From positions 64,001 to 128,000 of IMG/VR virus record IMGVR_UViG_3300023218_000040: 64,000 bases of DNA; one strand, given 5' to 3'. Numbering within the stretch: position 1 is the stretch's first letter; every line of letters begins with the position of its first letter. This document shows, piece by piece, positions 180-11,995 of this stretch. The notes beneath the pieces are model-generated. The model saw only the letters and a list, made by a program, of their open reading frames with translations, ran no database searches and had not been told where the DNA came from. This stretch comes from a virus. Its lineage: Duplodnaviria; Caudoviricetes. Position numbers and translations under genes: made by a program.

Positions 180-506
180 TTATAGTCCACCACCCAGACC
201 ACCGCCCAATCCTCCAAGACCACCTTCCTCAGATGGAGTCTTATAGACCTTCTGAATCATTTTCATTCTCTTGGAGTTTTCAACTCGTCGGGTCAACTGT
301 GATTTGCGGACCTTTTGAAGTAAGCTCAACGTAATCTTGAAACCACCACCGATTGCATCTGGATGATCTTCAACATCAGCACCTACAGGGAATAAGTTAT
401 CATTAGGAGTCTGTGAATGACCAAGGTCATCCACAGACTGTGGGGCAGGTTTTAGGTCACCAGCCGTAACTGGAGCCTCGGTTAGTGTTCTCTTTCCGAT
501 AATCAT
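180..506 (-). CDS. Possible nested in-frame 108-aa product (prohead core-like) from an internal start in the portal gene
   Basis: GGAG at 515-518 (-), 8-nt spacer, ATG at 506; the segment follows a long Gly-rich linker. Confidence 0.4.
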   Translation of the reverse strand: MIIGKRTLTEAPVTAGDLKPAPQSVDDLGHSQTPNDNLFPVGADVEDHPDAIGGGFKITLSLLQKVRKSQLTRRVENSKRMKMIQKVYKTPSEEGGLGGLGGGLGGGL

Positions 507-2258
507 CTCAGTTTCTCCAAATCCTCCAATACCAGCGCCACCAGGGGCACCACCAGTAGCACCAGTCATAACACCACCCGCCATATCAGCACCAAGGTCT
601 CCAAAGCCATCTGCTCCAACACCACCGCCTAGATCACCTACTCCGGGACCAAGACCCATCTGACCACCACCCAGGCCGCCACCCAGGCCGCCACCGAAGC
701 CACCACCAAATCCTCCACCAGCACCAAGCTCAGCGAAGTCAGTAGCATCCTTCGGATCGAATCGCTCCTCCATTACCATCTTTTCGTTCTCTACAATTTC
801 ATCCTCAGTCCAACCCATGTACTTCTTCAGTCCGAAGCGACGGGAGATGTAAGGCTCATCCTTGATGGACTGCCATACACTAATGTTATCCTGATCACGA
901 GCGTTCTGCTTGAACTCATCGTAGTTGGTTGGCTCGTTGAAATGCATATCGTAGTCAGCAGCATTTACATTAACATCACGAACCTTACAGTACAGTTTGA
1001 ATTCGAAATCGAACGTGTCGTCCATGTTCTTCTGGATACGCTCGCAGAATTTGGAGAACTCAATTTCCTCCTGATACGCCACACCAACACGACCATCGTT
1101 GAATACGGAACCACCCTCTTCTGGTCCTAGCAACCAAGAGTGCGGTACACGCAATGAACGCATCATCTTCTTGGTAAAATACTGAAGGTCTGGTAGCTCA
1201 TTCCATGGCTGCCCCTCAAGAGTCTCTACCTTGGAACCACGTTGATCGAAGGACACCGGAATGTAGATGTCTTCCAACTGAGAAATTGGGTTGTACACAG
1301 AGTCTACGCTTCTCTGGCCATCGCTTAGAATTTGGGGCACACGCTTCTGGTTTAGCTCGTTCTTGAAATTGTTGACGACCCAACTAGCACGGTCAGGACG
1401 CATCTTACCGGTGTCGATGTACCACACGGTACGTGACGGAGCACGCTGTGTGCGATGAATAATTGCAGCGTCCTCAAGAAGTTCACGTTGCTTGAATGTC
1501 TTCGAGGCATTCTCCAAGAAAGACTCCCCAAACGGCCAACGATTATTATAGCGATCTGATGGATCATCATCACCAGAAGCACCAGCAAACTTACCCTCGG
1601 AAACCGTTACCTGCATCATGTGAATTGAGGGTATAACCCTAGTATTACGCATACCAGAAGATAAGCTCAAGCTCTTGATAGAATCACTGAGACCACGGTT
1701 ATCCACGGTTAGTTCGATGTTCTCGATGTTGAACTTGAAGTTTCGAACGATCCAGGCAATTACCTGAGTGCTCTCTCGATCAACCAAGGCACCCAAAACG
1801 AAACGTGGGTGAACAGAGAATAACTCAAATGTATCAGGATTCCTGAAGAAAAACCAATCTCCATATTTGACTACGTTTCGGATGGTTCGCCATAGACGAT
1901 TATCCCACTCGTTAATACGAGTCCACTGTGTCATGTTCTCTATGACCAGACCAGACTCTTCCTCGGTTGGATCAAGAGCCCAATCAAAGTACCAGAAGTG
2001 TCCTTCGTCATTTATGGGAGAGCAATGCTCAGAAATCAAATCAAGGGCTCGGGATACATCAGAATCTTGATCCATCCAGTCATATAATTTATATCGTTCT
2101 AGCCTATCATATCTGCCCCTATATACTTGTTGGAGCATATTGAAATTATCAGAGCTACCACCGGACCACGAGTTGTCGCCTCCATAGGAGTGGAGTGTTA
2201 GTTTACGCTTACGGCGGTTACGACCGAGGTCAGGCTTTGCTATAGTGGTCCAGGCCAT
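180..2258 (-). CDS. gp20: Portal vertex protein (T4 gp20-like) with Gly-rich linker and extra C-terminal domain
   Basis: LEDAAIIHRTQRAPSRTVWYIDTG, QLEDIYIP..RGSKVETLEG and EEIEFSKFCERIQ resemble gp20 motifs; late promoter motif upstream. Confidence 0.9.
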   Translation of the reverse strand: MAWTTIAKPDLGRNRRKRKLTLHSYGGDNSWSGGSSDNFNMLQQVYRGRYDRLERYKLYDWMDQDSDVSRALDLISEHCSPINDEGHFWYFDWALDPTEEESGLVIENMTQWTRINEWDNRLWRTIRNVVKYGDWFFFRNPDTFELFSVHPRFVLGALVDRESTQVIAWIVRNFKFNIENIELTVDNRGLSDSIKSLSLSSGMRNTRVIPSIHMMQVTVSEGKFAGASGDDDPSDRYNNRWPFGESFLENASKTFKQRELLEDAAIIHRTQRAPSRTVWYIDTGKMRPDRASWVVNNFKNELNQKRVPQILSDGQRSVDSVYNPISQLEDIYIPVSFDQRGSKVETLEGQPWNELPDLQYFTKKMMRSLRVPHSWLLGPEEGGSVFNDGRVGVAYQEEIEFSKFCERIQKNMDDTFDFEFKLYCKVRDVNVNAADYDMHFNEPTNYDEFKQNARDQDNISVWQSIKDEPYISRRFGLKKYMGWTEDEIVENEKMVMEERFDPKDATDFAELGAGGGFGGGFGGGLGGGLGGGQMGLGPGVGDLGGGVGADGFGDLGADMAGGVMTGATGGAPGGAGIGGFGETEMIIGKRTLTEAPVTAGDLKPAPQSVDDLGHSQTPNDNLFPVGADVEDHPDAIGGGFKITLSLLQKVRKSQLTRRVENSKRMKMIQKVYKTPSEEGGLGGLGGGLGGGL

Positions 2259-2297
2259 TCTCTTGATATCCGGTGGGAATTAGTGATAACATATGTC

Positions 2298-2304
2298 TAT
2301 TTAC
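2298..2304 (-). promoter_or_regulatory. Late promoter motif GTAAATA for the portal gene
   Basis: Similar to the T4 late -10 TATAAATA; recurs upstream of 8 structural genes. Confidence 0.65.
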
Positions 2305-2324
2305 TTCAAGAAACCATAGGTCTA

Positions 2325-3785
2325 ATGGCTAGAAAATTCACCACGAAAGATTTCATCGAGCAAAGCCGTACGGTTCATGGTGAGGTATTCGATTACAGTA
2401 AGGTGACATACACCACGGCTCGTGATCCCGTGGTCATCATCTGTCCGGTTCATGGCGAGTTTGAGCAAATCGCTCACACGCACATGAGGGGTCGTGGATG
2501 TGCTAAGTGTTCTGCCAAAAAGATGGCTGTCAAAAGAAGCATGAAAATAGCCTCTGAATATATTGACAGGGTTAAGAAAGTTCATGGCGAACTCTACGAT
2601 CTATCTCTAGTTCGATATTCATCGGCAAAAGAACCAGTAGTGGTCATTTGTGGAAGGCATGGTAGATTTGAGATACGAGCGGATGTCTTTGAATCTGGGT
2701 CAATCTGTCCAAAGTGTTCGTATGAAAAGCGTGGACAAGATAAAGCAGATTCTTTTGAGGAATTTGTGGACAAAGGACAGCGATTGCATGCTGATCTATA
2801 TCGATATCCGCATCAAGTTTATAAGAATGCTTTTACTCACGTTGATATTGAATGTCGTACACACGGTGTATTTTCTCAAATTCCAAATAGCCACCTATCT
2901 GGTAATGGTTGTCCAAAATGTGTGCATCATGTATCATCCGGAGAGGAAGAGATAGCCAATTTTGTTAGAAATATGGCTCCAGACTTACAAACTAGCGTTA
3001 GAACAATAGTTCCGCCGAAAGAAATTGACATGTACAGTGAACAACACCAAATAGGAATCGAATATTGCGGATTGTATTGGCACACAGAAAATCGTGGTAA
3101 GAACAAAACATACCATATCGAAAAGCTGGATGGCTGTTTGAAGAAGGGAATAAATCTTATAACTATTTTCGAAGATGAATGGATTCACAACACCGATAAA
3201 GTTCAATCTCGTCTAACTCAATTGTTTGGGGCTACACCACAGCGCATTGCAGCACGAAAATGTGAGATAGAGATCGTATCTTCATCAGAATGTAGTTTAT
3301 TCATGAATGCTAATCATATTCAAGGAGCAGACATTTCTAGTGTTAGATTTGGTCTTAGGTATCATGGTGAATTAGTATCAATCATGACATTCGTTAAACC
3401 TAGATTTTCTAAAACCTACCAATGGGAGATGTCCAGGTTTTGCTCTAAAAACGGTATTTCGATAACAGGAGCAGCAGGAAAACTGTTTTCTAATTTCTTA
3501 CGAGAACATAACCCAAGCAGTGTAGTAACATACGCAGATTTGCGGTATGGGCGGGGGTACTTTTATAAACATCTGGGGTTTAAGCATTCCCATGATTCAA
3601 ATCCAAACTATTGGTATGTTGCCCCAGGCTCTACCATAAGAGAATCCCGTATGAAATACCAAAAGCACAAACTCATCAAGGAAGGATTTGATCCTGGCAA
3701 ATCCGAATGGCAAATCATGCAAGAGCGTGGTTATGACCGCATCTGGGATTGTGGTAATGCTGTTTGGGTATGGAACAAGAATTAA
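2325..3785 (+). CDS. Hef-like homing endonuclease: Zn-ribbon repeats, PD-(D/E)XK/Vsr-like nuclease, C-terminal GNAT/Mom-like domain
   Basis: Three HG..YDYS.V.Y...C..HG.F...C..C repeats; EIDMY...GIEYCGLYWH; C-terminal WEMSRFC...VVTYADLRYG...RIWDCG. ORF track starts at 2283; ATG 2325 preferred. Confidence 0.7.
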   Translation: MARKFTTKDFIEQSRTVHGEVFDYSKVTYTTARDPVVIICPVHGEFEQIAHTHMRGRGCAKCSAKKMAVKRSMKIASEYIDRVKKVHGELYDLSLVRYSSAKEPVVVICGRHGRFEIRADVFESGSICPKCSYEKRGQDKADSFEEFVDKGQRLHADLYRYPHQVYKNAFTHVDIECRTHGVFSQIPNSHLSGNGCPKCVHHVSSGEEEIANFVRNMAPDLQTSVRTIVPPKEIDMYSEQHQIGIEYCGLYWHTENRGKNKTYHIEKLDGCLKKGINLITIFEDEWIHNTDKVQSRLTQLFGATPQRIAARKCEIEIVSSSECSLFMNANHIQGADISSVRFGLRYHGELVSIMTFVKPRFSKTYQWEMSRFCSKNGISITGAAGKLFSNFLREHNPSSVVTYADLRYGRGYFYKHLGFKHSHDSNPNYWYVAPGSTIRESRMKYQKHKLIKEGFDPGKSEWQIMQERGYDRIWDCGNAVWVWNKN

Positions 3786-6193
3786 GGCGAAACGTCCACA
3801 GCGGTCTCAAACGCCTGAACTTCGCTATCGAGAGATGGAACCTTACGTTGGACCGGGGACGGACCAGTGACATCTCCCACACGAGACAGAGCACCAGCCT
3901 GTCCGATGATGTCACGAATCTGCGTGCTGATATCATTAGCGGTCGTTAGAATTGCTTCAATTGCCGTTAGCTTTTCTACTTGGGTACTCAAATGTGCCAT
4001 GGCAGGATCATTTGCTGGTGTCGGAGTTCTCCTAGCGGTAGCATCACCCGCTCGCTTTCTTTCCTCTGCTCGGGCTTTGATTTGGGCTACCTCGGCATCA
4101 ATCCTTCTTTGTGTTTCCGGGTCAGTAGTATCAGCACCAAACAGATTAGCCAATGCAGTTCCGATTGTACCTTCTCCTGGTACTACCATATCATTAATGG
4201 CTTTATCTGCTCCTGTTATTCTTGTCAATTCAAATCCAAGTAGACCAGCACCAGCTACACTACCAGCGGCACCCAGTGCTCCACGTCCAGCGATGCCAGC
4301 GGCTCCACGTGTTGCAGCAGATCCAGAACCACGGAAAATGCTACTCACAGCACCAGTGCCACGCCTAGCCAATCCACTGATACCACTAAGGATTCTAGAA
4401 ATTCCGCCGCCACCAACCAAAGCTATGGTGTTGGCTATGATCGCAGCGGTGTTGGCTGTCAGAGCCCTAACCAACCCAACTTCATCTCCAGGAAAGAACT
4501 GATTGAATAGGTCTTTAGCGGTCTCAAATAATGACTTCGCTGTATCATCATCTGGTGGGGGAGTTGGAGTATCATCTAATCTTGTGATTCTTGACAAACC
4601 CCCGATAAGTCTAGAAACATCGGTTTTGAAAAAATCTCGTATTTTTACAATTGGTCCCAATTCATCCGTTCTCTGTTTTGCAACTTCTTGCATAGTCTGA
4701 GTCAGATTTTCAAATCTACGGTTAAACTCTTGTGGACCAAGTTCGTCACGCTGATTTATTAGATTTGATAGCTCCCGAAGTTGAGGTTGCAAACCTAACT
4801 TTAAGATATCTTCAAATTCATTTGGAAAGTTGATAGCAAATGCACTCATGTCATTGCCAGATTGTGCTAACTGGTTAATCAAAAGCTTTAGCTCTGGGCT
4901 TCCTGCTGCTTCTGCCCTGGTCTGCAAGTTTTCAAATGCTCTTTTTTGTTCATTATTAAGAACGCTTATAGCTTCCAAGTTCGCAAGTTGTTTTCTATCT
5001 TCTTCTGTCATCTTGCGTAACTGTTCTAAAGACAATCCACTGTCTCTGGCAATTTTGGATAAGAACGTGTTCTGATCTATGAATCTCTTAGTAAGCTCTG
5101 ACGTTGAAATCTCCCCTTGAATACCGGCACGCTTCTGGACTTCCAGGAGTTCCAAAATAGCAACGTTGGCTTCTTCGTCGCTCATGAAACGACGGAAGTT
5201 GAACTCCTCATTGATCTGGTTACGTGTGTCACGCAGGAATTTCGCAGCATCTTCGATATTCTTACTACCTTCCAAAAGAAACTGAGTACCACGTCCCTCG
5301 GCAGCCTGACCCACAATGAATTGACCTGTACGTCGGATACTGTCACGTAAGCTTTCCATGTCATCGGTTGCAAACGCACCTACAACACGACCAAGTTGCT
5401 TGAAGGAGTCTATAATGATATCAGAGGTATCGGCAATTCCAGTTTGGGCGATGTCAAATGTGTCAGCCACACTTCTACTGATCCGCCCAAAGTTTCTCAT
5501 GATGTCTCTAACGTCGGTAAGTTCTGCACCGAACGATTGAACAGACAACCACACCGAGTTCATTATCTGTTCTCTTTGTGCGGAAAAACCAGATGAAATT
5601 AATTGTGATGCTTTTTCAAAAGCTGGAATGCTTTCATTATTTATGATACTATTGAAATCCCTCAGATTATCAGTTGTTTCCAATACTTCTGATATACTAC
5701 GTCCTTGGGCATCAATTTGGTTTTCACCTTGTGCTGAGCTAATTCGTTGTTGTTCAGCAGCGACGATCATGGCATCTGTTATTTGTTGCAGACCATTATT
5801 GAAGGTTTCTATTATGCCCTTAAGCTCCTCCTCTACGGTTTTCATTTCCTGGATGACATCATTAGTTCCACTACCACCAGTTCTACCGCCGCTACCAGAT
5901 CCACCGGTGCGCTCTATAGCCTTGGTAATAGCAGCCCTATTTTCTTGAAGAGTCTTCTTGAGAACAGCCTTGCTAGCACGAATTTCATCACGCAGTGTCT
6001 TTGCCATATCACCGGATGATGCCTCAATGCAATCACATATTTCACGTAGGAGGTCGGTTTGGAGTTCTTTAATCTCGCCGGTATTGACATCCATGCGAGT
6101 AACCTTGACGTTCGAGACATTAGCCTCGTCCATGTTTAAGGGGCGACGACTTTGCGTCGTGCCTTCGCTCACTGGTGGATTGTCATCAGCCAT
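3782..6193 (-). CDS. Tape-measure-like protein
   Basis: 803 aa, helical and Ala/Gln/Glu-rich with a Gly/Ala-rich C-terminal part; downstream of the frameshifting chaperone candidate; late promoter upstream. Confidence 0.6.
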   Translation of the reverse strand: MADDNPPVSEGTTQSRRPLNMDEANVSNVKVTRMDVNTGEIKELQTDLLREICDCIEASSGDMAKTLRDEIRASKAVLKKTLQENRAAITKAIERTGGSGSGGRTGGSGTNDVIQEMKTVEEELKGIIETFNNGLQQITDAMIVAAEQQRISSAQGENQIDAQGRSISEVLETTDNLRDFNSIINNESIPAFEKASQLISSGFSAQREQIMNSVWLSVQSFGAELTDVRDIMRNFGRISRSVADTFDIAQTGIADTSDIIIDSFKQLGRVVGAFATDDMESLRDSIRRTGQFIVGQAAEGRGTQFLLEGSKNIEDAAKFLRDTRNQINEEFNFRRFMSDEEANVAILELLEVQKRAGIQGEISTSELTKRFIDQNTFLSKIARDSGLSLEQLRKMTEEDRKQLANLEAISVLNNEQKRAFENLQTRAEAAGSPELKLLINQLAQSGNDMSAFAINFPNEFEDILKLGLQPQLRELSNLINQRDELGPQEFNRRFENLTQTMQEVAKQRTDELGPIVKIRDFFKTDVSRLIGGLSRITRLDDTPTPPPDDDTAKSLFETAKDLFNQFFPGDEVGLVRALTANTAAIIANTIALVGGGGISRILSGISGLARRGTGAVSSIFRGSGSAATRGAAGIAGRGALGAAGSVAGAGLLGFELTRITGADKAINDMVVPGEGTIGTALANLFGADTTDPETQRRIDAEVAQIKARAEERKRAGDATARRTPTPANDPAMAHLSTQVEKLTAIEAILTTANDISTQIRDIIGQAGALSRVGDVTGPSPVQRKVPSLDSEVQAFETAVDVSP

Positions 6194-6249: not shown

Positions 6250-6639
6250 TTAAAGACGGGGCAAATTGGCTATATCTCGGTCGTGATTTAGGTCCAAAGC
6301 CTCCTTAACAGCGAACCACATGCGATCACACTCGCTATTGGACAACCGTTTTATTGCATTCTCTATATTCATACCATAGTCCGATCTCAGATCATAATGT
6401 CTGCACATGTCAATAAATTTTTGTAGAGCCTCTTGGTCCTTTACCTCTTCTTTTACAAGCTCACAACGCTCGACAAGTTTACGTATAGTTATTCTATTAT
6501 AGACACCATGTATCGTAAACAGAAGATGAGCACGTGAAGATTTGATGCCCAGCATTGGTAACGCAACACCCAATACGATGAGAACCACCGCAACAGCGCC
6601 GGAACCAAAAATCAAATAGATTATAGTTGACTCATTCAT
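6250..6639 (-). CDS. Hypothetical N-terminally membrane-anchored protein (moron)
   Basis: 129 aa with hydrophobic residues ~6-29; own sigma70 promoter. Confidence 0.7.
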   Translation of the reverse strand: MNESTIIYLIFGSGAVAVVLIVLGVALPMLGIKSSRAHLLFTIHGVYNRITIRKLVERCELVKEEVKDQEALQKFIDMCRHYDLRSDYGMNIENAIKRLSNSECDRMWFAVKEALDLNHDRDIANLPRL

Positions 6640-6645
6640 GCTGAT

Positions 6646-6674
6646 ATTTTATCAATAAAAATCGGCATTGTCAA
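6646..6674 (-). promoter_or_regulatory. Sigma70-type promoter TTGACA-N17-TAAAAT, probably leaderless
   Basis: Near-consensus hexamers; ATG begins 7 nt after the -10. Confidence 0.75.
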
Positions 6675-6943
6675 CCCCCAATTAGATCACGCCCCGAGCC
6701 CTTCTTAGCGTCTTTATGGGCTCTCTTTATTGCAGCTTCCTGCTCTTTGTTATACTCCTCCAATGCCTCGTATAACAACTCTACTTCCCTTGGGGATGCT
6801 TGCTTGATGTCGTCATATTGGACCGCTCCTTCATACGCTTTACAGATCTTGGCGAGGTTCTTGATGGTCTTCTCCCGGTTTTCTCTTTCATCTTCGATGT
6901 ATCTGATGAAATCATCTCCGGAGTTGAAGCTTCTGGAGAGTAA
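6671..6943 (-). CDS. -1 frame extension (90 aa) of the gp26-like chaperone; gpT/gp51-like segment
   Basis: Open frame LLSRSFNSGDDFIRYIEDE...SPREVELLYEALEEYNKEQ...LIGG* starts exactly at the T9 run; no ATG/GTG/TTG between the upstream stop and the slippery site. Confidence 0.75.
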   Translation of the reverse strand, partial: LLSRSFNSGDDFIRYIEDERENREKTIKNLAKICKAYEGAVQYDDIKQASPREVELLYEALEEYNKEQEAAIKRAHKDAKKGSGRDLIGG

Positions 6944-7872
6944 AAAAAAATCTTCTGTGGGTCTACCTCGAACGAAGCCGTGTTTTCATGACCGCAATTG
7001 ATACATGTGTACTTGATCTTGGTTAGGTCATTCAGCTTTTCGTTGTATGCCTTGGCTTTCCTCTGCATGTGGTCTACGATAGTGGGTGGTACCATCTCCA
7101 GCCACTCGGCTATGAAGGACTCATCGAATACCTTTTCACCCTTAGCATTGGCAACATAGAAGATACTACCTAGCGTCAGCACGAATCGAGTTTCTGAAGT
7201 GTTCTCGATCATTCGCTCATAGGCATCCATCATGCTCTCATCTTCGATGAGCTTGGTAATGCTTTCTTTCTCGATGCTCTCATATACACGATTCATTGAG
7301 ACCGAGTTCTTGAGTATGGTTAATGCGGACTTGTAGCACAGAGGCTTCATATGAACCTGTTGGCCACGAATTTCCGGAAGGATCAATAACAACGATTCCA
7401 TGTCTTCCAGTGGAGCATAACGCTGGATGTGATGGTTCAAGTCTATATCCAGCTTGTTCTTGTGATTGCATACGGCAACCTTCACCTTCTTCCCGTCATC
7501 ACCATCGACTTCCTCGGTATTTGGGTTCTCACACACGTGAGTCAATTCCATGTGACTACCATAGGATGCAAGACGACAAGCAATCATTATTGCCTGAATA
7601 TCAACTTCACACATCTCTTCGGGTTTGAGAATAGAAGGACAGATATTACGTAGAATCTTGGGCACCCCACGACCAGATGCCAGAACGAATGGATCTTTGG
7701 CAACCAGTTCCGCCATGATACCCAAAGGCTTTACTTCTAGATCGGCAGGATCAGCATCCTCTGCAATGATACCGGAACCCTTGGGATAGAAATACCCCAT
7801 GGTTGGCAATGCGATACTGACCGATGTGATATCACCAGAGTTGAGGTCTTCAAGAAGCGGATTGTTGCTCAT
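6781..7872 (-). CDS. gp26: T4 gp26-like baseplate hub / tail assembly chaperone (0-frame product)
   Basis: SIALPTMGYFYP, CPSI..P.EM.EVDI.AIMIACRLASYG, C-terminal CxxC (CINC) followed by IFF. Confidence 0.75.
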   Translation of the reverse strand: MSNNPLLEDLNSGDITSVSIALPTMGYFYPKGSGIIAEDADPADLEVKPLGIMAELVAKDPFVLASGRGVPKILRNICPSILKPEEMCEVDIQAIMIACRLASYGSHMELTHVCENPNTEEVDGDDGKKVKVAVCNHKNKLDIDLNHHIQRYAPLEDMESLLLILPEIRGQQVHMKPLCYKSALTILKNSVSMNRVYESIEKESITKLIEDESMMDAYERMIENTSETRFVLTLGSIFYVANAKGEKVFDESFIAEWLEMVPPTIVDHMQRKAKAYNEKLNDLTKIKYTCINCGHENTASFEVDPQKIFFYSPEASTPEMISSDTSKMKEKTGRRPSRTSPRSVKRMKERSNMTTSSKHPQGK

Positions 7873-8225: not shown

Positions 8226-8840
8226 TTAGATAGATAGGGGATCAGGGATACGGTATTGGCTTTCAGGGCGAGGCTTGTAATCTGAGACTGCTATGATAGC
8301 TTGCTCACGATCACAACCATATTCAGTCTGCTTGGAATCAACCTCGTCCCAGAATTCATCTTCTAGTTGTTTCTGTTTACCAACGAATTCATCAGTTGGT
8401 TGCTCACCAGGAAATACCTTGAATCGAGTTTTGGATTTAATGTCTGGATGGTTATCCCAGGTTTCTTTCCAAGCATTCTTGATGATCCATTCGATGTACT
8501 CAACCTTCTCTGCTACGCTATACTCAATACCATCGTTGTGAATATTGGGTGCAGTAATGTGTTTACCGTTGTTCTTGAGCTTTGGGAAAGACGGTAGGAT
8601 ATCAGTATAGCGTTCGTTGTAGTCACAGAGCTTCGCTGCTTGTTCTAACGTGAAGTCCTTACCACGGCATTTTCTCCAAAATGTCTGCTCAATGAACTTT
8701 TGAAACTCTTCACGAGTATCCAGCCAAGGCAAACAAAGCACGTCCATGTACCATTTGGCCATGGCATATTCTTCATCGGCTGTAAAGCATACGAACGAGA
8801 GCGTGCTCCCGTTCGATAGCTTCGTCTCCACTAGTTTCAT
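8226..8840 (-). CDS. Hypothetical protein
   Basis: 204-aa ORF translationally coupled (ATGA) to thyX. Confidence 0.75.
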   Translation of the reverse strand: MKLVETKLSNGSTLSFVCFTADEEYAMAKWYMDVLCLPWLDTREEFQKFIEQTFWRKCRGKDFTLEQAAKLCDYNERYTDILPSFPKLKNNGKHITAPNIHNDGIEYSVAEKVEYIEWIIKNAWKETWDNHPDIKSKTRFKVFPGEQPTDEFVGKQKQLEDEFWDEVDSKQTEYGCDREQAIIAVSDYKPRPESQYRIPDPLSI

Positions 8841-11800
8841 AGCATGAACTTATTCAAGAACTCCGTGATCTCTCGCTGTGAGCAACCTTTATCCTTCAGT
8901 TCTTTTGAAATCGGATCCTTATCGAGTCCACGAAGCAAATCACGGACTACCTCATATTCCATTCTACTCAATTGAGATCCCTCAAGCAAGTAGTCACGAA
9001 AAGCTTCTGTTGCCCATGGCACATGGGGCTCGATCAGTTCCAGAATAGCATCAGCAAATACTCGGATTTCGTACTGAGCATGTGGATCGCAGCGTAGCTT
9101 CAGGAAGTGGAACAGGTTATGTAGGTTACCCGACCAATACATTTGGCTGTACGTGGCAACAGGCAGTACCATACGAGCTAGCTCCCTGGCAATACCTGGG
9201 AAGTCACCAGCCAATTCTGACACACCGTTCTGCTCTAGATACGCTGTAATCGCCTCAGAGACGCTTTCCTCGGTGGGATAGGGGTCTACATTGCCAGCGT
9301 CCGCAGCACGCTTCCTGGCCTCCCTGACGGCTACTACGGCTGCTTCCTTGCACCACTCGATACGGCGGCGAACACCATCGGGTGGAGGAGTCAGATCTCC
9401 ATTTTCATTTGGACCTAGAAGATGAAGGTAAGTCTGATAGCTAGTATCGAATACCTCGTCAACAGCCGCCATGACCGCATTATATTCTTGTTCAGTCAGA
9501 ACGTCACCAGAACGACCCTGGCGGTTGCTGGTGCTTTGTGGAGCTAGATGCCCCAAGTCTGGGTGGTACATCTCTCCATCGAGAACTGAGTAACGTGCGC
9601 TGTACTCGTTGATCGAGTTATGAACAATCATTCCGTTTGCTACGAAATTGTGGTTTGGTCCCTCGACGCAGATGTCATACGTATCTTCTATTCCAATCAA
9701 CTCTATTTTGATGATTTTAGATGGTCGGGCTACCATCAAGTTGCCTTTCCCCTTACCTGCTCGATGCAACAACCCATCTCCATGCTCTTGACCGTGAGCC
9801 CTTCGGTGACAGGAGACACACAATGTTACTAGGTTATCGAAATCGTATGCGTGTTCAGGGTAATCAACAACCGGCAATACATGATGCACTTGGAGTTGAT
9901 TCTTGCTTGAACACTCGTTACATCTGTAGTCGAATTTTTCATGCACTTTTGGTGCTTGTGCAGTGGTCCATGCACCTATGAGTTGGCGTTCTGGGGTGAT
10001 CCCTCCTTTCCAGAAATTGCTATTTTCACCAGAGCGAGCACGCTTAATTGCCGATATGTGATCATCAGAATGAACCAAATTTGTACTATACCCATATACA
10101 TCTTTGTTCCATGGTTTATGACCTTTTTTGAAACGATTCTCACCGTTAGAAAACTGTAGACCATGAATACGAAGCCATTTTCTGATTGTATGGTAGCTAC
10201 AGCCAGCGTTTGATGCTATTTCTTGAACTGAATAACCAAGATTTCGTTGGTTATTCATCCAATTGAAATCCTGGTGTGCCGGTATCCCATTACACATAAC
10301 ATAGGCATCTTTGGTTATACACGCACGATTGTTTGTTACTGTTAAACCAACCGCATCTTCCAACCTCTGCCAACCATCAAGCGTATAAATCTGATGGTCC
10401 TTGGAACATTTGAGAGTCTTACCGTTTTCTAATGTTATTTCGAAGACCTGTTTTGGTCCACTGTATATTACATCATTGATTGTACCAGTTGTGAATTGTT
10501 CAGCGGATTCGTCATACACTCGAAGTAACATCGAACGAATTCTAGTTCTATTGAAATCTCTCAAAGATCTTTTCTGCTTGTCCTTTCTCTTTATCGGTGG
10601 ATTTTCATTCCATTTTCTATGAAGATCTGAAAGCTTCATGTATTTTGCTGTACGAACACCGAGCTTAATATGATCTGGCAACTCGAATGTGATAACAGAA
10701 TCGCCAGACAAACAGAACGTACGGTGGCGGTGCCACTGACGAAATACGAAGATCGGAGCCTTGACGTGAAACTTGAAGTTGCACATCTCGAATGGAGTCG
10801 AATTAGATGACACAAAACCATATTTAGTATTTGCTCCACGTACCATTAAAAAACCACTAGACGTAGTGGCACAATATACACTACCGGTATATTGAGATGT
10901 TGAATGGTATTGCTTCCTACTTTCAAGACTGGTACGCCCGTTTGGAAAATATATATTGACGGTGTAACCGCTTTGGCGTTCACGACAATAATGACTATCT
11001 AAACCTAAACGTGGTGAGATAGCAGACACTATGTCTGTGAGATTTTTGGATGTAGAACTAAATGATATTTGATGTCTATCACTTTTGTGATTTCCATCGC
11101 TTTCAACCAAACCAGTTAGTAGTCCTCGTAGTTCTTCTCCAGTTAGATTACGAAGATTTTCTAGTTGGAAATGTTTGTTGTTTGTTTGTGTATCTATTTC
11201 TAAACAAACTCGTAATTCATCTGGAGTAGTAATGTAGAACCTTGTTGTATCTTTACTATCCACCGAACTGGTGTATTCCCAACCCAATCTGTGAAGTAAA
11301 GAGGTTAAAAACGAAATCTTACGTTCCTTTTTGAATCCAAAACTAATCCTATTTGGACTTGCCACGTGACCATCACCAAGGAACATACCGACGAACGTAT
11401 AGAAATCATCAATCACACCGTTATACGGATGGGTTGAGTATCCTAACATGGATTCAAACCACCCCCACTTTGGCATGTCCTTTGCCCGATATACCTTGAA
11501 ATCGTTCTGATACTTTTCCTTAAACAACATTTTGTGTTCGTCGGTTACAGAGTATGACATTCTTTCATTGGAGAATTCATACATGATTCCATCGTAATCA
11601 AAGGATTTAACTTCTAACTCCTCGACTGTGTAAGAACGGGTATCGGGGTTAGGAACAAGAAAAGTTTCGACGGAATTACATTCACACCATTTCTTCCATC
11701 CTTCAATCGTTAAAACTTCCATATCTGGATGATAGCAATGTAGGTGACGCATGAGGTATCGGATCAACCCCTTATCGGAGTTAACCTTCTTTGTACCCTT

Positions 11801-11995
11801 GCCATATGAGACACGGGCTGCGTTCACAATGGACGAGTCATCGCCCATGAAGTCCACCAGACCGACAAAGCCGGTATCTAGAACCTTCCTGTACTGTGGC
11901 TGCCAGACACGAAACGTCTCATCGTGTTCTGCGCTACGAATAACGAATTCATCATCGAAGTCGTCCGGGACTTCTACTTTCACAAATCGAGTCAT
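8837..11995 (-). CDS. thyX: FAD-dependent thymidylate synthase ThyX precursor with two inteins (spliced product about 374 aa)
   Basis: IVNAARVSY, RHLH|STPFEM, RQWHRHRTF|SINEYSARYS (ThyX motif), RELARMVLP, NLHNLFHFLKLR...HAQYEIR. Confidence 0.95.
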   Translation of the reverse strand: MTRFVKVEVPDDFDDEFVIRSAEHDETFRVWQPQYRKVLDTGFVGLVDFMGDDSSIVNAARVSYGKGTKKVNSDKGLIRYLMRHLHCYHPDMEVLTIEGWKKWCECNSVETFLVPNPDTRSYTVEELEVKSFDYDGIMYEFSNERMSYSVTDEHKMLFKEKYQNDFKVYRAKDMPKWGWFESMLGYSTHPYNGVIDDFYTFVGMFLGDGHVASPNRISFGFKKERKISFLTSLLHRLGWEYTSSVDSKDTTRFYITTPDELRVCLEIDTQTNNKHFQLENLRNLTGEELRGLLTGLVESDGNHKSDRHQISFSSTSKNLTDIVSAISPRLGLDSHYCRERQSGYTVNIYFPNGRTSLESRKQYHSTSQYTGSVYCATTSSGFLMVRGANTKYGFVSSNSTPFEMCNFKFHVKAPIFVFRQWHRHRTFCLSGDSVITFELPDHIKLGVRTAKYMKLSDLHRKWNENPPIKRKDKQKRSLRDFNRTRIRSMLLRVYDESAEQFTTGTINDVIYSGPKQVFEITLENGKTLKCSKDHQIYTLDGWQRLEDAVGLTVTNNRACITKDAYVMCNGIPAHQDFNWMNNQRNLGYSVQEIASNAGCSYHTIRKWLRIHGLQFSNGENRFKKGHKPWNKDVYGYSTNLVHSDDHISAIKRARSGENSNFWKGGITPERQLIGAWTTAQAPKVHEKFDYRCNECSSKNQLQVHHVLPVVDYPEHAYDFDNLVTLCVSCHRRAHGQEHGDGLLHRAGKGKGNLMVARPSKIIKIELIGIEDTYDICVEGPNHNFVANGMIVHNSINEYSARYSVLDGEMYHPDLGHLAPQSTSNRQGRSGDVLTEQEYNAVMAAVDEVFDTSYQTYLHLLGPNENGDLTPPPDGVRRRIEWCKEAAVVAVREARKRAADAGNVDPYPTEESVSEAITAYLEQNGVSELAGDFPGIARELARMVLPVATYSQMYWSGNLHNLFHFLKLRCDPHAQYEIRVFADAILELIEPHVPWATEAFRDYLLEGSQLSRMEYEVVRDLLRGLDKDPISKELKDKGCSQREITEFLNKFML
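9617..10714 (-). mobile_element. Intein 2 in thyX (366 aa) with HNH endonuclease
   Basis: Starts CLSGDS, block B CSKDHQI, HNH CNEC...VHH...NLVTLCVSCH, ends IVHN|S. Confidence 0.92.
10802..11737 (-). mobile_element. Intein 1 in thyX (312 aa) with LAGLIDADG endonuclease
   Basis: Starts CYHPDMEVLT, block B VTDEH, FVGMFLGDG and LTGLVESDG, ends VSSN|S. Confidence 0.9.

What the first reader, a model, noticed from the sequence alone, without database searches (positions are those of the whole stretch)
6671..7872. Probable programmed -1 frameshift in the gp26-like chaperone upstream of the tape-measure gene
Seen on the minus strand: AAG ATT TTT TTT TAC, a run of nine T giving a T TTT TTT slippery heptamer at 6943-6949. 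The 0 frame continues into a low-complexity 53-aa tail. The -1 frame opens a start-less, protein-like 90-aa ORF (…YDDIKQASPREVELLYEALEEYNKEQ…), giving a 400-aa product. Known: lambda gpG/gpGT tail chaperones use a -1 frameshift upstream of the tape-measure gene. Inference: a G/GT-type recoding event in a T4-type gp26/gp51 module of a jumbo myophage, missed by the ORF track.
Basis: partly seen in the sequence, partly recalled or inferred. Interest (0 to 1): 0.8.

Follow-up and report, generated by a model that had tools for sequence, protein, structure and literature searches.

The report
Conserved frameshift in baseplate-hub assembly gene
A tail-baseplate assembly gene of this giant phage very probably makes a short and a long protein, because some ribosomes slip back one base on a run of nine U's; 19 of 20 relatives keep an in-phase slippery site, no record I read annotates it, and phage T4 makes the two forms from two genes (26 and 51).

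Summary
A minus-strand gene (7872-6781, 363 aa) of Pfam family PF12322 (T4 gp26/gp51 hub assembly proteins) carries a T9 run (6950-6942) that forms the heptamer T_TTT_TTT. The -1 frame continues for 90 start-less codons to a TGA at 6673-6671, giving a 400-aa product.

It is not an assembly error:
- A 63%-identical homologue from an unrelated sequencing run has the same T9 and the same -1 ORF.
- 19 of 20 homologous loci keep an in-phase T_TTT_TTN heptamer at the same 'FF' column. These include eight metagenomic loci and cultured jumbo phages such as RaK2, PA5oct, GAP32, XacN1 and CBB.
- All 19 have a conserved 70-93-aa -1 extension and a short, unconserved 0-frame tail.
- Substitutions fall on the third codon position of the -1 frame.
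- A profile of the extension found no in-frame fusion among 1.84 billion proteins.

Complete jumbo-phage genomes have one PF12322 gene; T4 has two. T4 gp51 carries an in-frame C-terminal tail that weakly resembles the extension.

Best reading: a programmed -1 ribosomal frameshift that works like lambda G/GT but in an unrelated family. Slippage by RNA polymerase on T9 may contribute. I found no published report. This scan has already noted the same frameshift on other genomes. The 'tape measure' label of the 803-aa gene downstream is unproven.

The parts
6781..7872 (-). 0-frame ORF, 363 aa (short form): the PF12322 hub-assembly domain plus a 53-aa unconserved S/T/P/K/R-rich tail
   Evidence: Pfam PF12322 scores E 1.9e-8, 34.7 bits against a cut-off of 24.5, over residues 72-301. 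PHROG 150 'baseplate hub' scores E 1.3e-8.
6943..7872 (-). Shared N-terminal part (310 codons) of both products; four conserved Cys (C114, C135, C290, C293) suggest a zinc ribbon
   Evidence: Homologues from cultured phages align up to residue ~309-321.
6942..6950 (-). T9 run containing the slippery heptamer T_TTT_TTT (6949-6943)
   Evidence: The run is identical in the 63%-identical homologue L004. A contig from another sample reproduces it.
6671..6943 (-). -1-frame extension: 90 codons plus TGA, with no start codon of its own; predicted helical hairpin (H9-36, H43-47, H51-82)
   Evidence: Against L004 it is 74% identical over the 53 codons it shares with the 0-frame tail, which is 50% identical. 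Substitutions by -1-frame codon position are 24/15/44.
6781..6942 (-). 0-frame tail after the slip site (53 codons plus TAG); its length is 1-53 aa in relatives and its sequence is not conserved
6250..6639 (-). 129-aa ORF between the hub gene and the 803-aa gene; hydrophobic N-terminus, no family match (context)
   Evidence: A small ORF sits at the same position in L004 and L005.
3782..6193 (-). 803-aa protein, possible tape measure (context; unproven)
   Evidence: No Pfam, PHROG, NCBIfam, PDB or tblastn match. Language-model features are weakly like tape-measure clusters, scores 0.91-0.92. A Gly/Ala-rich hydrophobic segment lies at ~580-660. A syntenic 734-aa homologue in L005 matches at E 2e-14.

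Best explanation
The gene at 7872-6781 (minus strand) encodes a baseplate-hub assembly protein of the T4 gp26/gp51 family (PF12322). Most ribosomes read straight through the U9 run and stop 53 codons later. That gives a 363-aa short form whose tail is evolutionarily unconstrained.

A fraction of ribosomes, with the two tRNA-Phe on UUU UUU (heptamer U_UUU_UUU, 6949-6943), slip back one base. They then read UUA CUC UCC... in the -1 frame for 90 codons. That gives a 400-aa long form (junction ...KIFF|LLSR...) with a conserved helical-hairpin extension.

Shown here: the site, the frames, their conservation, and purifying selection on the -1 frame.

Inferred:
- The slip is ribosomal.
- It happens at a low, fixed ratio.
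- The two forms act together in hub and tail-tube initiation. The short form would correspond to T4 gp26. The long form would correspond to T4 gp51, which carries a similar C-terminal tail in frame.

The logic is that of lambda G/GT: two products with a shared N-terminus, made at a set ratio from one gene of the tail assembly module.
For: 1. Family. PF12322 scores above its cut-off. T4 gp26 and gp51 both match PF12322 full-length, and gp51 has ~48 extra C-terminal residues (precomputed PF28602).

2. Not an error. L004, from a different SRA run and 63% identical in protein, has the identical T9 and -1 ORF. A 151-nt contig from another sample of the study covers 6903-7053 with no difference.

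3. Conservation of the site. 19 of 20 loci have an in-phase T_TTT_TTN heptamer at the same column. They include five more metagenomic loci and Xoo-sp13, XacN1, PA5oct, RaK2, GAP32, Vibrio 2.275.O, RsoM2USA, Serratia BF, Kaldavass, XbC2, CBB and CM1. In the 14 loci tabulated, the preceding codon always ends in T across nine different amino acids, against 33.5% T at third positions elsewhere.

4. Coding in the -1 frame. The extensions align, with the motif ..K.LA....G...Y..[IL]...SP.E. WIN against L004 gives substitutions of 24/15/44 by -1-frame codon position. Identity is 74% in the -1 frame and 50% in the 0-frame tail. 0-frame tails vary from 1 to 53 aa.

5. Recoding is obligatory. None of the 14 tabulated loci has a start codon in the -1 frame within 13 codons upstream of the site, and in this window's clade none occurs within the first 39 or more codons after it. 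A profile of the extension against 1.84 billion proteins hit only 25. Apart from one 804-aa protein that matched in six short stretches, all are 42-120-aa ORF fragments. None is an in-frame fusion to a hub domain.

6. Ribosomal rather than transcriptional. Eight of the cultured phages have only T6 (T_TTT_TTC), which is a classical X_XXY_YYZ heptamer. From general knowledge, T6 is too short for efficient polymerase slippage.

7. One gene against two. The complete genomes of RaK2, PA5oct, Xoo-sp13 and GAP32 each have one PF12322 gene. T4 has two. This phage's 204-kb record has one.

8. Link to gp51. hhalign places the extension on the gp51 C-tail, collinearly, at P 9e-4 to 5e-3. AF2 models show the same order in both: long helix, short helix after a Tyr, then a Pro-capped long helix.
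Against: - There is no experimental evidence: no RNA run holds the stretch, and there are no peptides.
- No conserved stimulatory RNA structure lies downstream. Fold z-scores run from -1.2 to +1.0 and the folds differ between homologues. No conserved SD-like element lies upstream. Efficiency may therefore be low, as it is for lambda G/GT.
- T9 is long enough for RNA polymerase slippage, which would give the same protein.
- The phase of the run is partly fixed by the conserved Phe-Phe motif, so phase alone does not discriminate between the two mechanisms.
- One relative (L018, a 770-nt contig) has only T5 (CTT TTT GGC).
- The similarity of the extension to the gp51 tail is weak (24 columns, hhalign probability 7-24%).
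- The window's record is only ~55% complete, so a second PF12322 gene elsewhere in the genome is not excluded.
Confidence: 0.77

Rival explanations
1. Transcriptional slippage. RNA polymerase stutters on the T9 run and adds one U to a share of the transcripts. Ordinary translation of those mRNAs then yields the same 400-aa protein. The ribosome does not slip.
For: The run is 9 T in this window and in L004, L005, L010 and RsoM2USA. From general knowledge, runs of about 9 A or T support productive slippage (Thermus dnaX, IS elements, Shigella mxiE). No stimulatory RNA structure is seen.
Against: Eight cultured relatives keep the same two-frame layout with only T6, and six loci with T7. Those runs are too short for efficient slippage but are canonical heptamers. 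Deleting one U would give a +1 product that stops after ~11 codons, which would be wasteful.
Confidence: 0.13
2. The -1 ORF is a separate small gene. It would be translated on its own through a non-canonical start or through re-initiation after the hub gene, and not fused to the hub protein.
For: GenBank records annotate it that way in several phages: Xoosp13_287, XacN1 ORF316, GAP32_242, BF gp247, NVP2275O_435, CBB gp249. In those phages an ATG or other canonical start (ATG/GTG/TTG) lies 4-19 codons into the extension.
Against: In this window the first ATG/GTG/TTG is codon 55 of 90, which is after the conserved core. L004 and PA5oct have none at all. The conserved residues begin right at the slip site: FF[RY]S..., LLIS.PEE. 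The -1 frame is always open from the heptamer onwards, and the frame relation is always -1.
Confidence: 0.05
3. Homopolymer sequencing or assembly error, or a decaying pseudogene. The true gene would be a single 400-aa ORF (T10 or T7), or else broken.
For: Homopolymers are error-prone, and the window comes from a metagenome assembly.
Against: The same frame break occurs in 19 of 20 independent, diverged loci, including finished genomes of cultured phages. No in-frame fused version exists among 1.84 billion representative proteins. A contig from another sample has the identical T9. The -1 frame is under purifying selection.
Confidence: 0.02

Closest known systems
Phage T4 gp26 (208 aa) and gp51 (249 aa), baseplate hub assembly proteins (Pfam PF12322 T4_baseplate)
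   Same: Same protein family for the N-terminal part. There are four conserved Cys, and a Phe/Phe-Phe motif just after the last Cys pair where the slip site sits. gp51 carries an in-frame C-terminal helical tail whose position, motif (P-x-E-R) and predicted helix pattern resemble the -1 extension.
   Different: T4 has two separate paralogous genes and no slippery run; gp26 reads GAG TTC TTT GAG. Here, and in cultured jumbo phages, a single gene appears to give both forms. The N-part here is ~100 aa longer. T4 gene 26 also yields an internal-start product, 26', which is a different way of making two forms. The similarity of the tail to gp51 is only weakly supported.
Lambda gpG/gpGT and the conserved -1 frameshift of tail assembly chaperone genes (Xu, Hendrix & Duda 2004, Mol Cell 16:11; also P2 E/E+E', Mu gp41/42), from my own knowledge
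   Same: A -1 slip at a heptamer near the 3' end of a tail-assembly gene gives a short and a long product with a common N-terminus. No strong RNA stimulator is present. The gene lies in the tail module, near a long protein that may be the tape measure.
   Different: There is no sequence or family relationship: no tail-chaperone Pfam or PHROG hit. The heptamer is U_UUU_UUN rather than G_GGA_AAG. The gene is not directly upstream of the putative tape measure: a 129-aa ORF intervenes here, and in RaK2-like phages the two genes are divergent. Binding to a tape measure or tube protein is untested.
Transcriptional-slippage recoding on A/T runs (Thermus dnaX, IS elements, Shigella mxiE), from my own knowledge
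   Same: A run of nine identical T's in the coding strand. One extra U in the mRNA would give the same fusion.
   Different: Relatives keep the recoding layout with T6-T7, which fits ribosomal slippage better.

Membership tests
PF12322 T4_baseplate (T4 gp26/gp51 hub assembly proteins) | Match to the Pfam model above the gathering score | tested here: met
   34.7 bits against a cut-off of 24.5, E 1.9e-8, residues 72-301 on profile positions 47-211 of 219. A whole-record search gives the same single match.
PF12322 T4_baseplate (T4 gp26/gp51 hub assembly proteins) | Two pairs of conserved cysteines (putative zinc ribbon), the second pair shortly before the C-terminal Phe motif | tested here: met
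   C114, C135, C290 and C293 are conserved in 13-14 of 14 aligned homologues. gp51 homologues have invariant C85, C88, C185 and C186.
PF12322 T4_baseplate (T4 gp26/gp51 hub assembly proteins) | gp51-type C-terminal tail (precomputed Pfam PF28602 on gp51 homologues) | tested here: inconclusive
   PF28602 is not in the local Pfam copy. hhalign of the -1 extensions against the gp51 tail gives P 9e-4 to 5e-3 over 24 collinear columns. The AF2 helix pattern is similar.
PF12322 T4_baseplate (T4 gp26/gp51 hub assembly proteins) | Role in baseplate hub assembly | not testable with these tools
   Inferred from family membership and from the position in a structural module (portal at 180-2258).
Programmed -1 ribosomal frameshift sites | X_XXY_YYZ heptamer in the 0-frame phase that allows both tRNAs to re-pair | tested here: met
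   T_TTT_TTT at 6949-6943. The heptamer is in phase in 19 of 20 homologous loci.
Programmed -1 ribosomal frameshift sites | The -1 ORF is conserved, protein-coding and lacks its own start | tested here: met
Programmed -1 ribosomal frameshift sites | Downstream stimulatory hairpin or pseudoknot, or an upstream SD-like element | tested here: not met
   No fold stands out from shuffles and none is conserved among six homologues. This is not a strict requirement; from my own knowledge, lambda G/GT lacks one.
Programmed -1 ribosomal frameshift sites | A transframe protein is actually made | not testable with these tools
   No RNA or proteome data were available.
Lambda G/GT-type tail assembly chaperones | Homology to a known tail-chaperone family | tested here: not met
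   There is no tail-chaperone Pfam, PHROG or NCBIfam hit for either part, and no PDB relative.
Lambda G/GT-type tail assembly chaperones | Gene lies between the tail tube gene and the tape measure gene, directly upstream of the latter | tested here: inconclusive
   An 803-aa unassigned protein lies 2 genes downstream; its tape-measure identity is unproven. In RaK2-like phages the neighbouring 'tape-measure-like' structural gene is divergent.

The most novel reading that the evidence does not exclude
The gp26/gp51 (PF12322) family would be the T4-superfamily and jumbo-phage counterpart of the G/GT tail assembly chaperone. On this reading, a short and a long form made at a fixed ratio by a -1 frameshift is the ancestral state. 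It is kept in jumbo phages and in this uncultured clade. The T4 lineage later resolved it into two genes (26 and 51) by duplication. This would remove T4-like phages as the long-standing exception to the rule that long-tailed phages use a frameshifted chaperone. It would also assign a concrete role to gp26 and gp51, which are absent from the finished T4 baseplate.
Probability: 0.4. Interest if true: 0.75.

Novelty: new variant of a known kind. Interest (0 to 1): 0.62.

Why it matters
Programmed frameshifts in tail chaperone genes are a textbook feature of lambda-, P2- and Mu-like phages. From my own knowledge, T4-type phages have been treated as lacking one, and the roles of T4 gp26 and gp51 remain vague.

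A conserved, unannotated -1 frameshift in the single gp26/gp51-family gene of jumbo phages has several consequences:
- It corrects the annotation of many genomes, where the extension is either missed or called a separate 'hypothetical protein'.
- It explains why T4 has two paralogues.
- It gives a directly testable model for hub assembly: the ratio of the two forms, and the partner of the 70-93-aa helical extension.

For this window it also shows that the 363-aa gene call is incomplete, and that the real functional product includes a 400-aa form.

Tried and rejected
- DNA-level search of the phage collection with the locus: no match.
- IMG/VR pattern scans with the N-part and with the extension: nothing usable.
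- tblastn of the extension alone against phages: only a chance hit at E 0.6.
- Pfam, PHROG and NCBIfam scans of the extension: only sub-threshold chance hits.
- PDB sequence searches with the hub protein, the extension profile and the 803-aa protein: nothing significant.
- Foldseek of the extension model against BFVD: no match below E 0.39. A helical hairpin is uninformative for this kind of search.
- RNA folding downstream of the slip site in six homologues: no conserved or unusually stable structure.
- Sequencing runs: four DNA holders from one study and no RNA holder listed. Contigs cover only part of the stretch, and one 151-nt contig spans the T9 run. Homopolymer length in raw reads could not be counted, because these runs are kept as contigs.
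- Complex prediction of the 90-aa extension with the 803-aa protein: no verdict, with both chains folded at low confidence. It says nothing either way.
- BLASTP of the 803-aa protein against T4 gp29: not significant.
- Lookup of the exact 363-aa product: not on record in the look-up of encoding contigs.
- Two contigs (P0004, P0022) could not be read because the sample files were too large.
- Literature: nine searches and three papers read. The searches combined gp26, gp51, baseplate hub, jumbo, frameshift, ribosomal slippage and PRFect. None describes this frameshift. Subscription-only papers are not covered.
Full report
**The observation**

On the minus strand the window reads ...CCA CAG AAG ATT TTT TTT TAC TCT CCA..., with nine T at 6950-6942. 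The ORF that starts at the ATG at 7872 is preceded by GGAG/AAGGA. It reads ATT TTT TTT TAC through the run and ends at the TAG at 6783-6781 (363 aa). Its last 53 residues are rich in S, T, P, K and R. The heptamer T_TTT_TTT lies at 6949-6943, in the X_XXY_YYZ phase. From 6943 the -1 frame reads LLSRSFNSGDDFIRYIEDERENREKTIKNLAKICKAYEGAVQYDDIKQASPREVELLYEALEEYNKEQ... for 90 codons, up to the TGA at 6673-6671. The transframe product is therefore 310 + 90 = 400 aa with the junction KIFF|LLSR. The -1 ORF has no ATG, GTG or TTG in the 14 open codons upstream of the site, and none in its first 55 codons.

**What the gene is**

The 363-aa product matches Pfam PF12322 (T4_baseplate) above the curated cut-off: 34.7 against 24.5 bits, residues 72-301. 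It also matches PHROG 150 'baseplate hub'. By tblastn its relatives are the 'baseplate hub subunit' genes of jumbo myophages, at 21-25% identity. These include Xoo-sp13, XacN1, PA5oct, RaK2, GAP32, CBB and Serratia BF. Their alignments end at query residue ~309-321, that is, at the slip site. The window is part of a 204-kb IMG/VR virus record estimated to be 55% complete. The same protein is on record on a 360-kb contig, so this is a jumbo phage. The neighbouring genes are:
- a T4-type portal (180-2258);
- an HNH/DUF723 homing endonuclease (2283-3785, plus strand);
- an unassigned 803-aa protein (3782-6193);
- a 129-aa ORF (6250-6639);
- upstream, a 204-aa ORF and a ThyX gene with two inteins.

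**Not an assembly error**

The closest relative, P0003, is 63% identical and comes from a different SRA run. It is also 363 aa long. Its contig L004 has exactly the same CCACAGAAGATTTTTTTTTACTCTCCAGAAG context, and a 91-codon -1 ORF that is 67% identical to ours.

Between the two, substitutions in the extension fall 24/15/44 on codon positions 1/2/3 of the -1 frame. Over the 53 codons where both frames are open, the -1 frame is 74% identical and the 0-frame tail only 50%. A 151-nt contig from another sample of the source study covers 6903-7053 with no difference and no gap.

**Conservation of the recoding site**

I examined 20 homologous loci at the DNA level:
- the window itself;
- seven metagenomic contigs (L004, L005/L006, L007, L008/L009, L010, L018, L019; protein identity down to ~32%);
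- twelve cultured phages (Xoo-sp13, XacN1, PA5oct, RaK2, GAP32, Vibrio 2.275.O, RsoM2USA, Serratia BF, Kaldavass, XbC2, CBB, Stenotrophomonas CM1).

Nineteen of the 20 have a T run of 6-9 that forms an in-phase heptamer at the same 'FF' column, a few residues after the last Cys pair. The heptamers are T_TTT_TTT, T_TTT_TTA or T_TTT_TTC. Each is followed by a 0-frame tail of only 1-53 unconserved codons and by a -1 ORF of 70-93 codons. The exception, L018 (a 770-nt contig), has T5 (CTT TTT GGC) but the same -1 ORF.

In the 14 loci tabulated, the codon before the slippery Phe codons is ATT, TTT, CTT, GCT, AGT, CGT, AAT, TAT or GTT. That is nine different amino acids, always ending in T. T is at the third position in only 33.5% of codons elsewhere in these genes, and Phe is TTT in 51%. 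The loci are related, so a simple product of these probabilities overstates the significance. Even so, nine distinct codons all ending in T would be unlikely without selection on the nucleotide run itself. T4 gp26 has the homologous Phe-Phe motif (…KEFFELL*) but encodes it as GAG TTC TTT GAG and stops there.

**The extension is a real, obligatorily recoded domain**

The 14 extensions align with a shared pattern (…K.LA…G…Y..[IL]…SP.E…). AlphaFold2 predicts a helical hairpin: H9-36, a short helix at 43-47, then H51-82, with mean pLDDT 78.

A profile of the six extensions of this clade was searched against 1.84 billion representative proteins. It found 25 hits. Apart from one 804-aa protein that matched in six short stretches, all are 42-120-aa ORF fragments called in the -1 frame. 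Several still begin upstream of the FF, for example …PTETFFLRTGRF…. No protein carries the domain fused in frame to a hub domain, so the frame break is the rule in this lineage and not an accident. Several GenBank records annotate the distal part of the extension as a separate 'hypothetical protein': Xoosp13_287, XacN1 ORF316, GAP32_242, BF gp247, NVP2275O_435 and CBB gp249. In every one of these the -1 frame is open from the heptamer into that ORF.

**Mechanism**

A -1 ribosomal slip on U_UUU_UUN is the simplest mechanism shared by all members. Eight cultured phages have only T6 in the T_TTT_TTC phase, and six loci have T7. From general knowledge, T6 is too short for efficient RNA polymerase slippage.

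Some of the evidence does not discriminate between the two mechanisms:
- The phase of the run is partly dictated by the conserved Phe-Phe codons.
- A longer run is favoured under either mechanism.

In this window (T9), polymerase slippage that adds one U would give the same protein, and it may contribute. I found no conserved downstream hairpin or pseudoknot (z-scores -1.2 to +1.0, with different folds in six homologues) and no conserved upstream SD-like element. This is as in lambda G/GT, and it suggests a low constitutive efficiency. That last point is an inference.

**Relation to T4 gp26 and gp51**

Earlier notes of this scan claim that the long form corresponds to T4 gp51, so I tested this.
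- T4 gp26 (208 aa) and gp51 (249 aa) both match PF12322 end to end. gp51 has ~48 further residues, which carry a separate precomputed Pfam family, PF28602, in 91 of 94 homologues.
- hhalign places the extension profile on gp51 residues 224-247, collinearly, with P between 9e-4 and 5e-3. In the same small-alignment setting the N-parts, which are certainly homologous, score no better (E ~1e-3).
- The gp51 model (pLDDT 91.6) ends with H208-221, then a Tyr, H226-230, and a Pro-capped H234-249. This mirrors the H9-36 / Y43-H43-47 / P51-H51-82 order of the extension.
- By eye, gp51's ...FKLLVNPDEIF... resembles the junction FFR.KLLIS.PEE[IV] of RaK2-like phages.
- The complete genomes of RaK2, PA5oct, Xoo-sp13 and GAP32 each contain one PF12322 gene, and T4 contains two. 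The window's record contains one.

Together these results support the idea that one frameshifted gene here does the work of the two T4 genes. The homology of the tails remains moderately, not strongly, supported.

**Comparison with G/GT and the surroundings**

The logic matches the lambda G/GT paradigm: a short and a long form with a shared N-terminus, a -1 slip, and a tail-assembly gene. The protein family does not match, since there is no tail-chaperone family hit.

The 803-aa downstream protein has no detectable family. Several indirect features are compatible with a tape measure:
- its size;
- its helical N-part;
- a Gly/Ala-rich hydrophobic segment (~580-660);
- weak language-model similarity to tape-measure clusters;
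- a syntenic 734-aa homologue in L005.

None of these proves it, and BLASTP against T4 gp29 is not significant. In RaK2-like phages the hub gene sits next to, but divergent from, a 'virion structural protein' that RaK2's record annotates as tape-measure-like.

**Novelty**

None of the GenBank records I read annotates ribosomal slippage here. Nine full-text searches and three papers, including the PRFect frameshift-prediction paper, gave no description of it. Papers in subscription journals are not covered by that library. This scan has already reported the same frameshift on other genomes, so this window is one more member: a diverged, uncultured clade with an unusually long T9 run and a 53-codon 0-frame tail. 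Measured against the published record it is a new variant of a known kind, namely a tail-assembly -1 frameshift in an unrelated gene family.

**Verdict**

I put programmed -1 ribosomal frameshifting as the main mechanism at ~0.77, transcriptional slippage as the main mechanism at ~0.13, a separate small gene at ~0.05, and an error or pseudogene at ~0.02.

Noticed in passing
window 6646-6674 (minus strand): A near-perfect sigma-70-type promoter: TTGACA, a 17-nt spacer, TAAAAT, 11 of 12 matches, with TG before the -10 hexamer. Its -35 hexamer contains the TGA stop of the -1 extension. It lies ~7 nt upstream of the ATG of the 129-aa ORF, so that ORF could have its own, nearly leaderless, transcript.
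   Followed up: partly
window 8837-11995 (minus strand): A 1052-aa ThyX (PF02511) is interrupted by two inteins, one with a LAGLIDADG and one with an HNH endonuclease domain. The homologous ThyX in relative L005 is only 386-410 aa, i.e. intein-free. First readers had already noted this.
   Followed up: no
window 2283-3785 (plus strand): A 500-aa HNH/DUF723 homing-endonuclease-like gene (PHROG 559, E 1e-124) sits on the opposite strand between the portal gene and the 803-aa gene. The same insertion, at the same place, is present in relative L005 (485 aa).
   Followed up: no
L018:150-170 (770-nt ENA contig): This is the only relative without a canonical heptamer. It has CTT TTT GGC (T5), yet the -1 ORF is intact and conserved. 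It could be a weaker single-tRNA slip site, or a read error in a short low-coverage contig.
   Followed up: partly
L017 (T4) 3803-4429, minus strand: T4 gene 26 is annotated with an internal in-frame start product, 26' (95 aa). So T4 also makes two products from this gene family, by a different route.
   Followed up: no
window 180-2258 (minus strand): The portal protein (692 aa) extends ~190 aa beyond the gp20 Pfam match (residues 54-498). An earlier first-reader note describes the extra part as a Gly-rich tether followed by a further domain.
   Followed up: no
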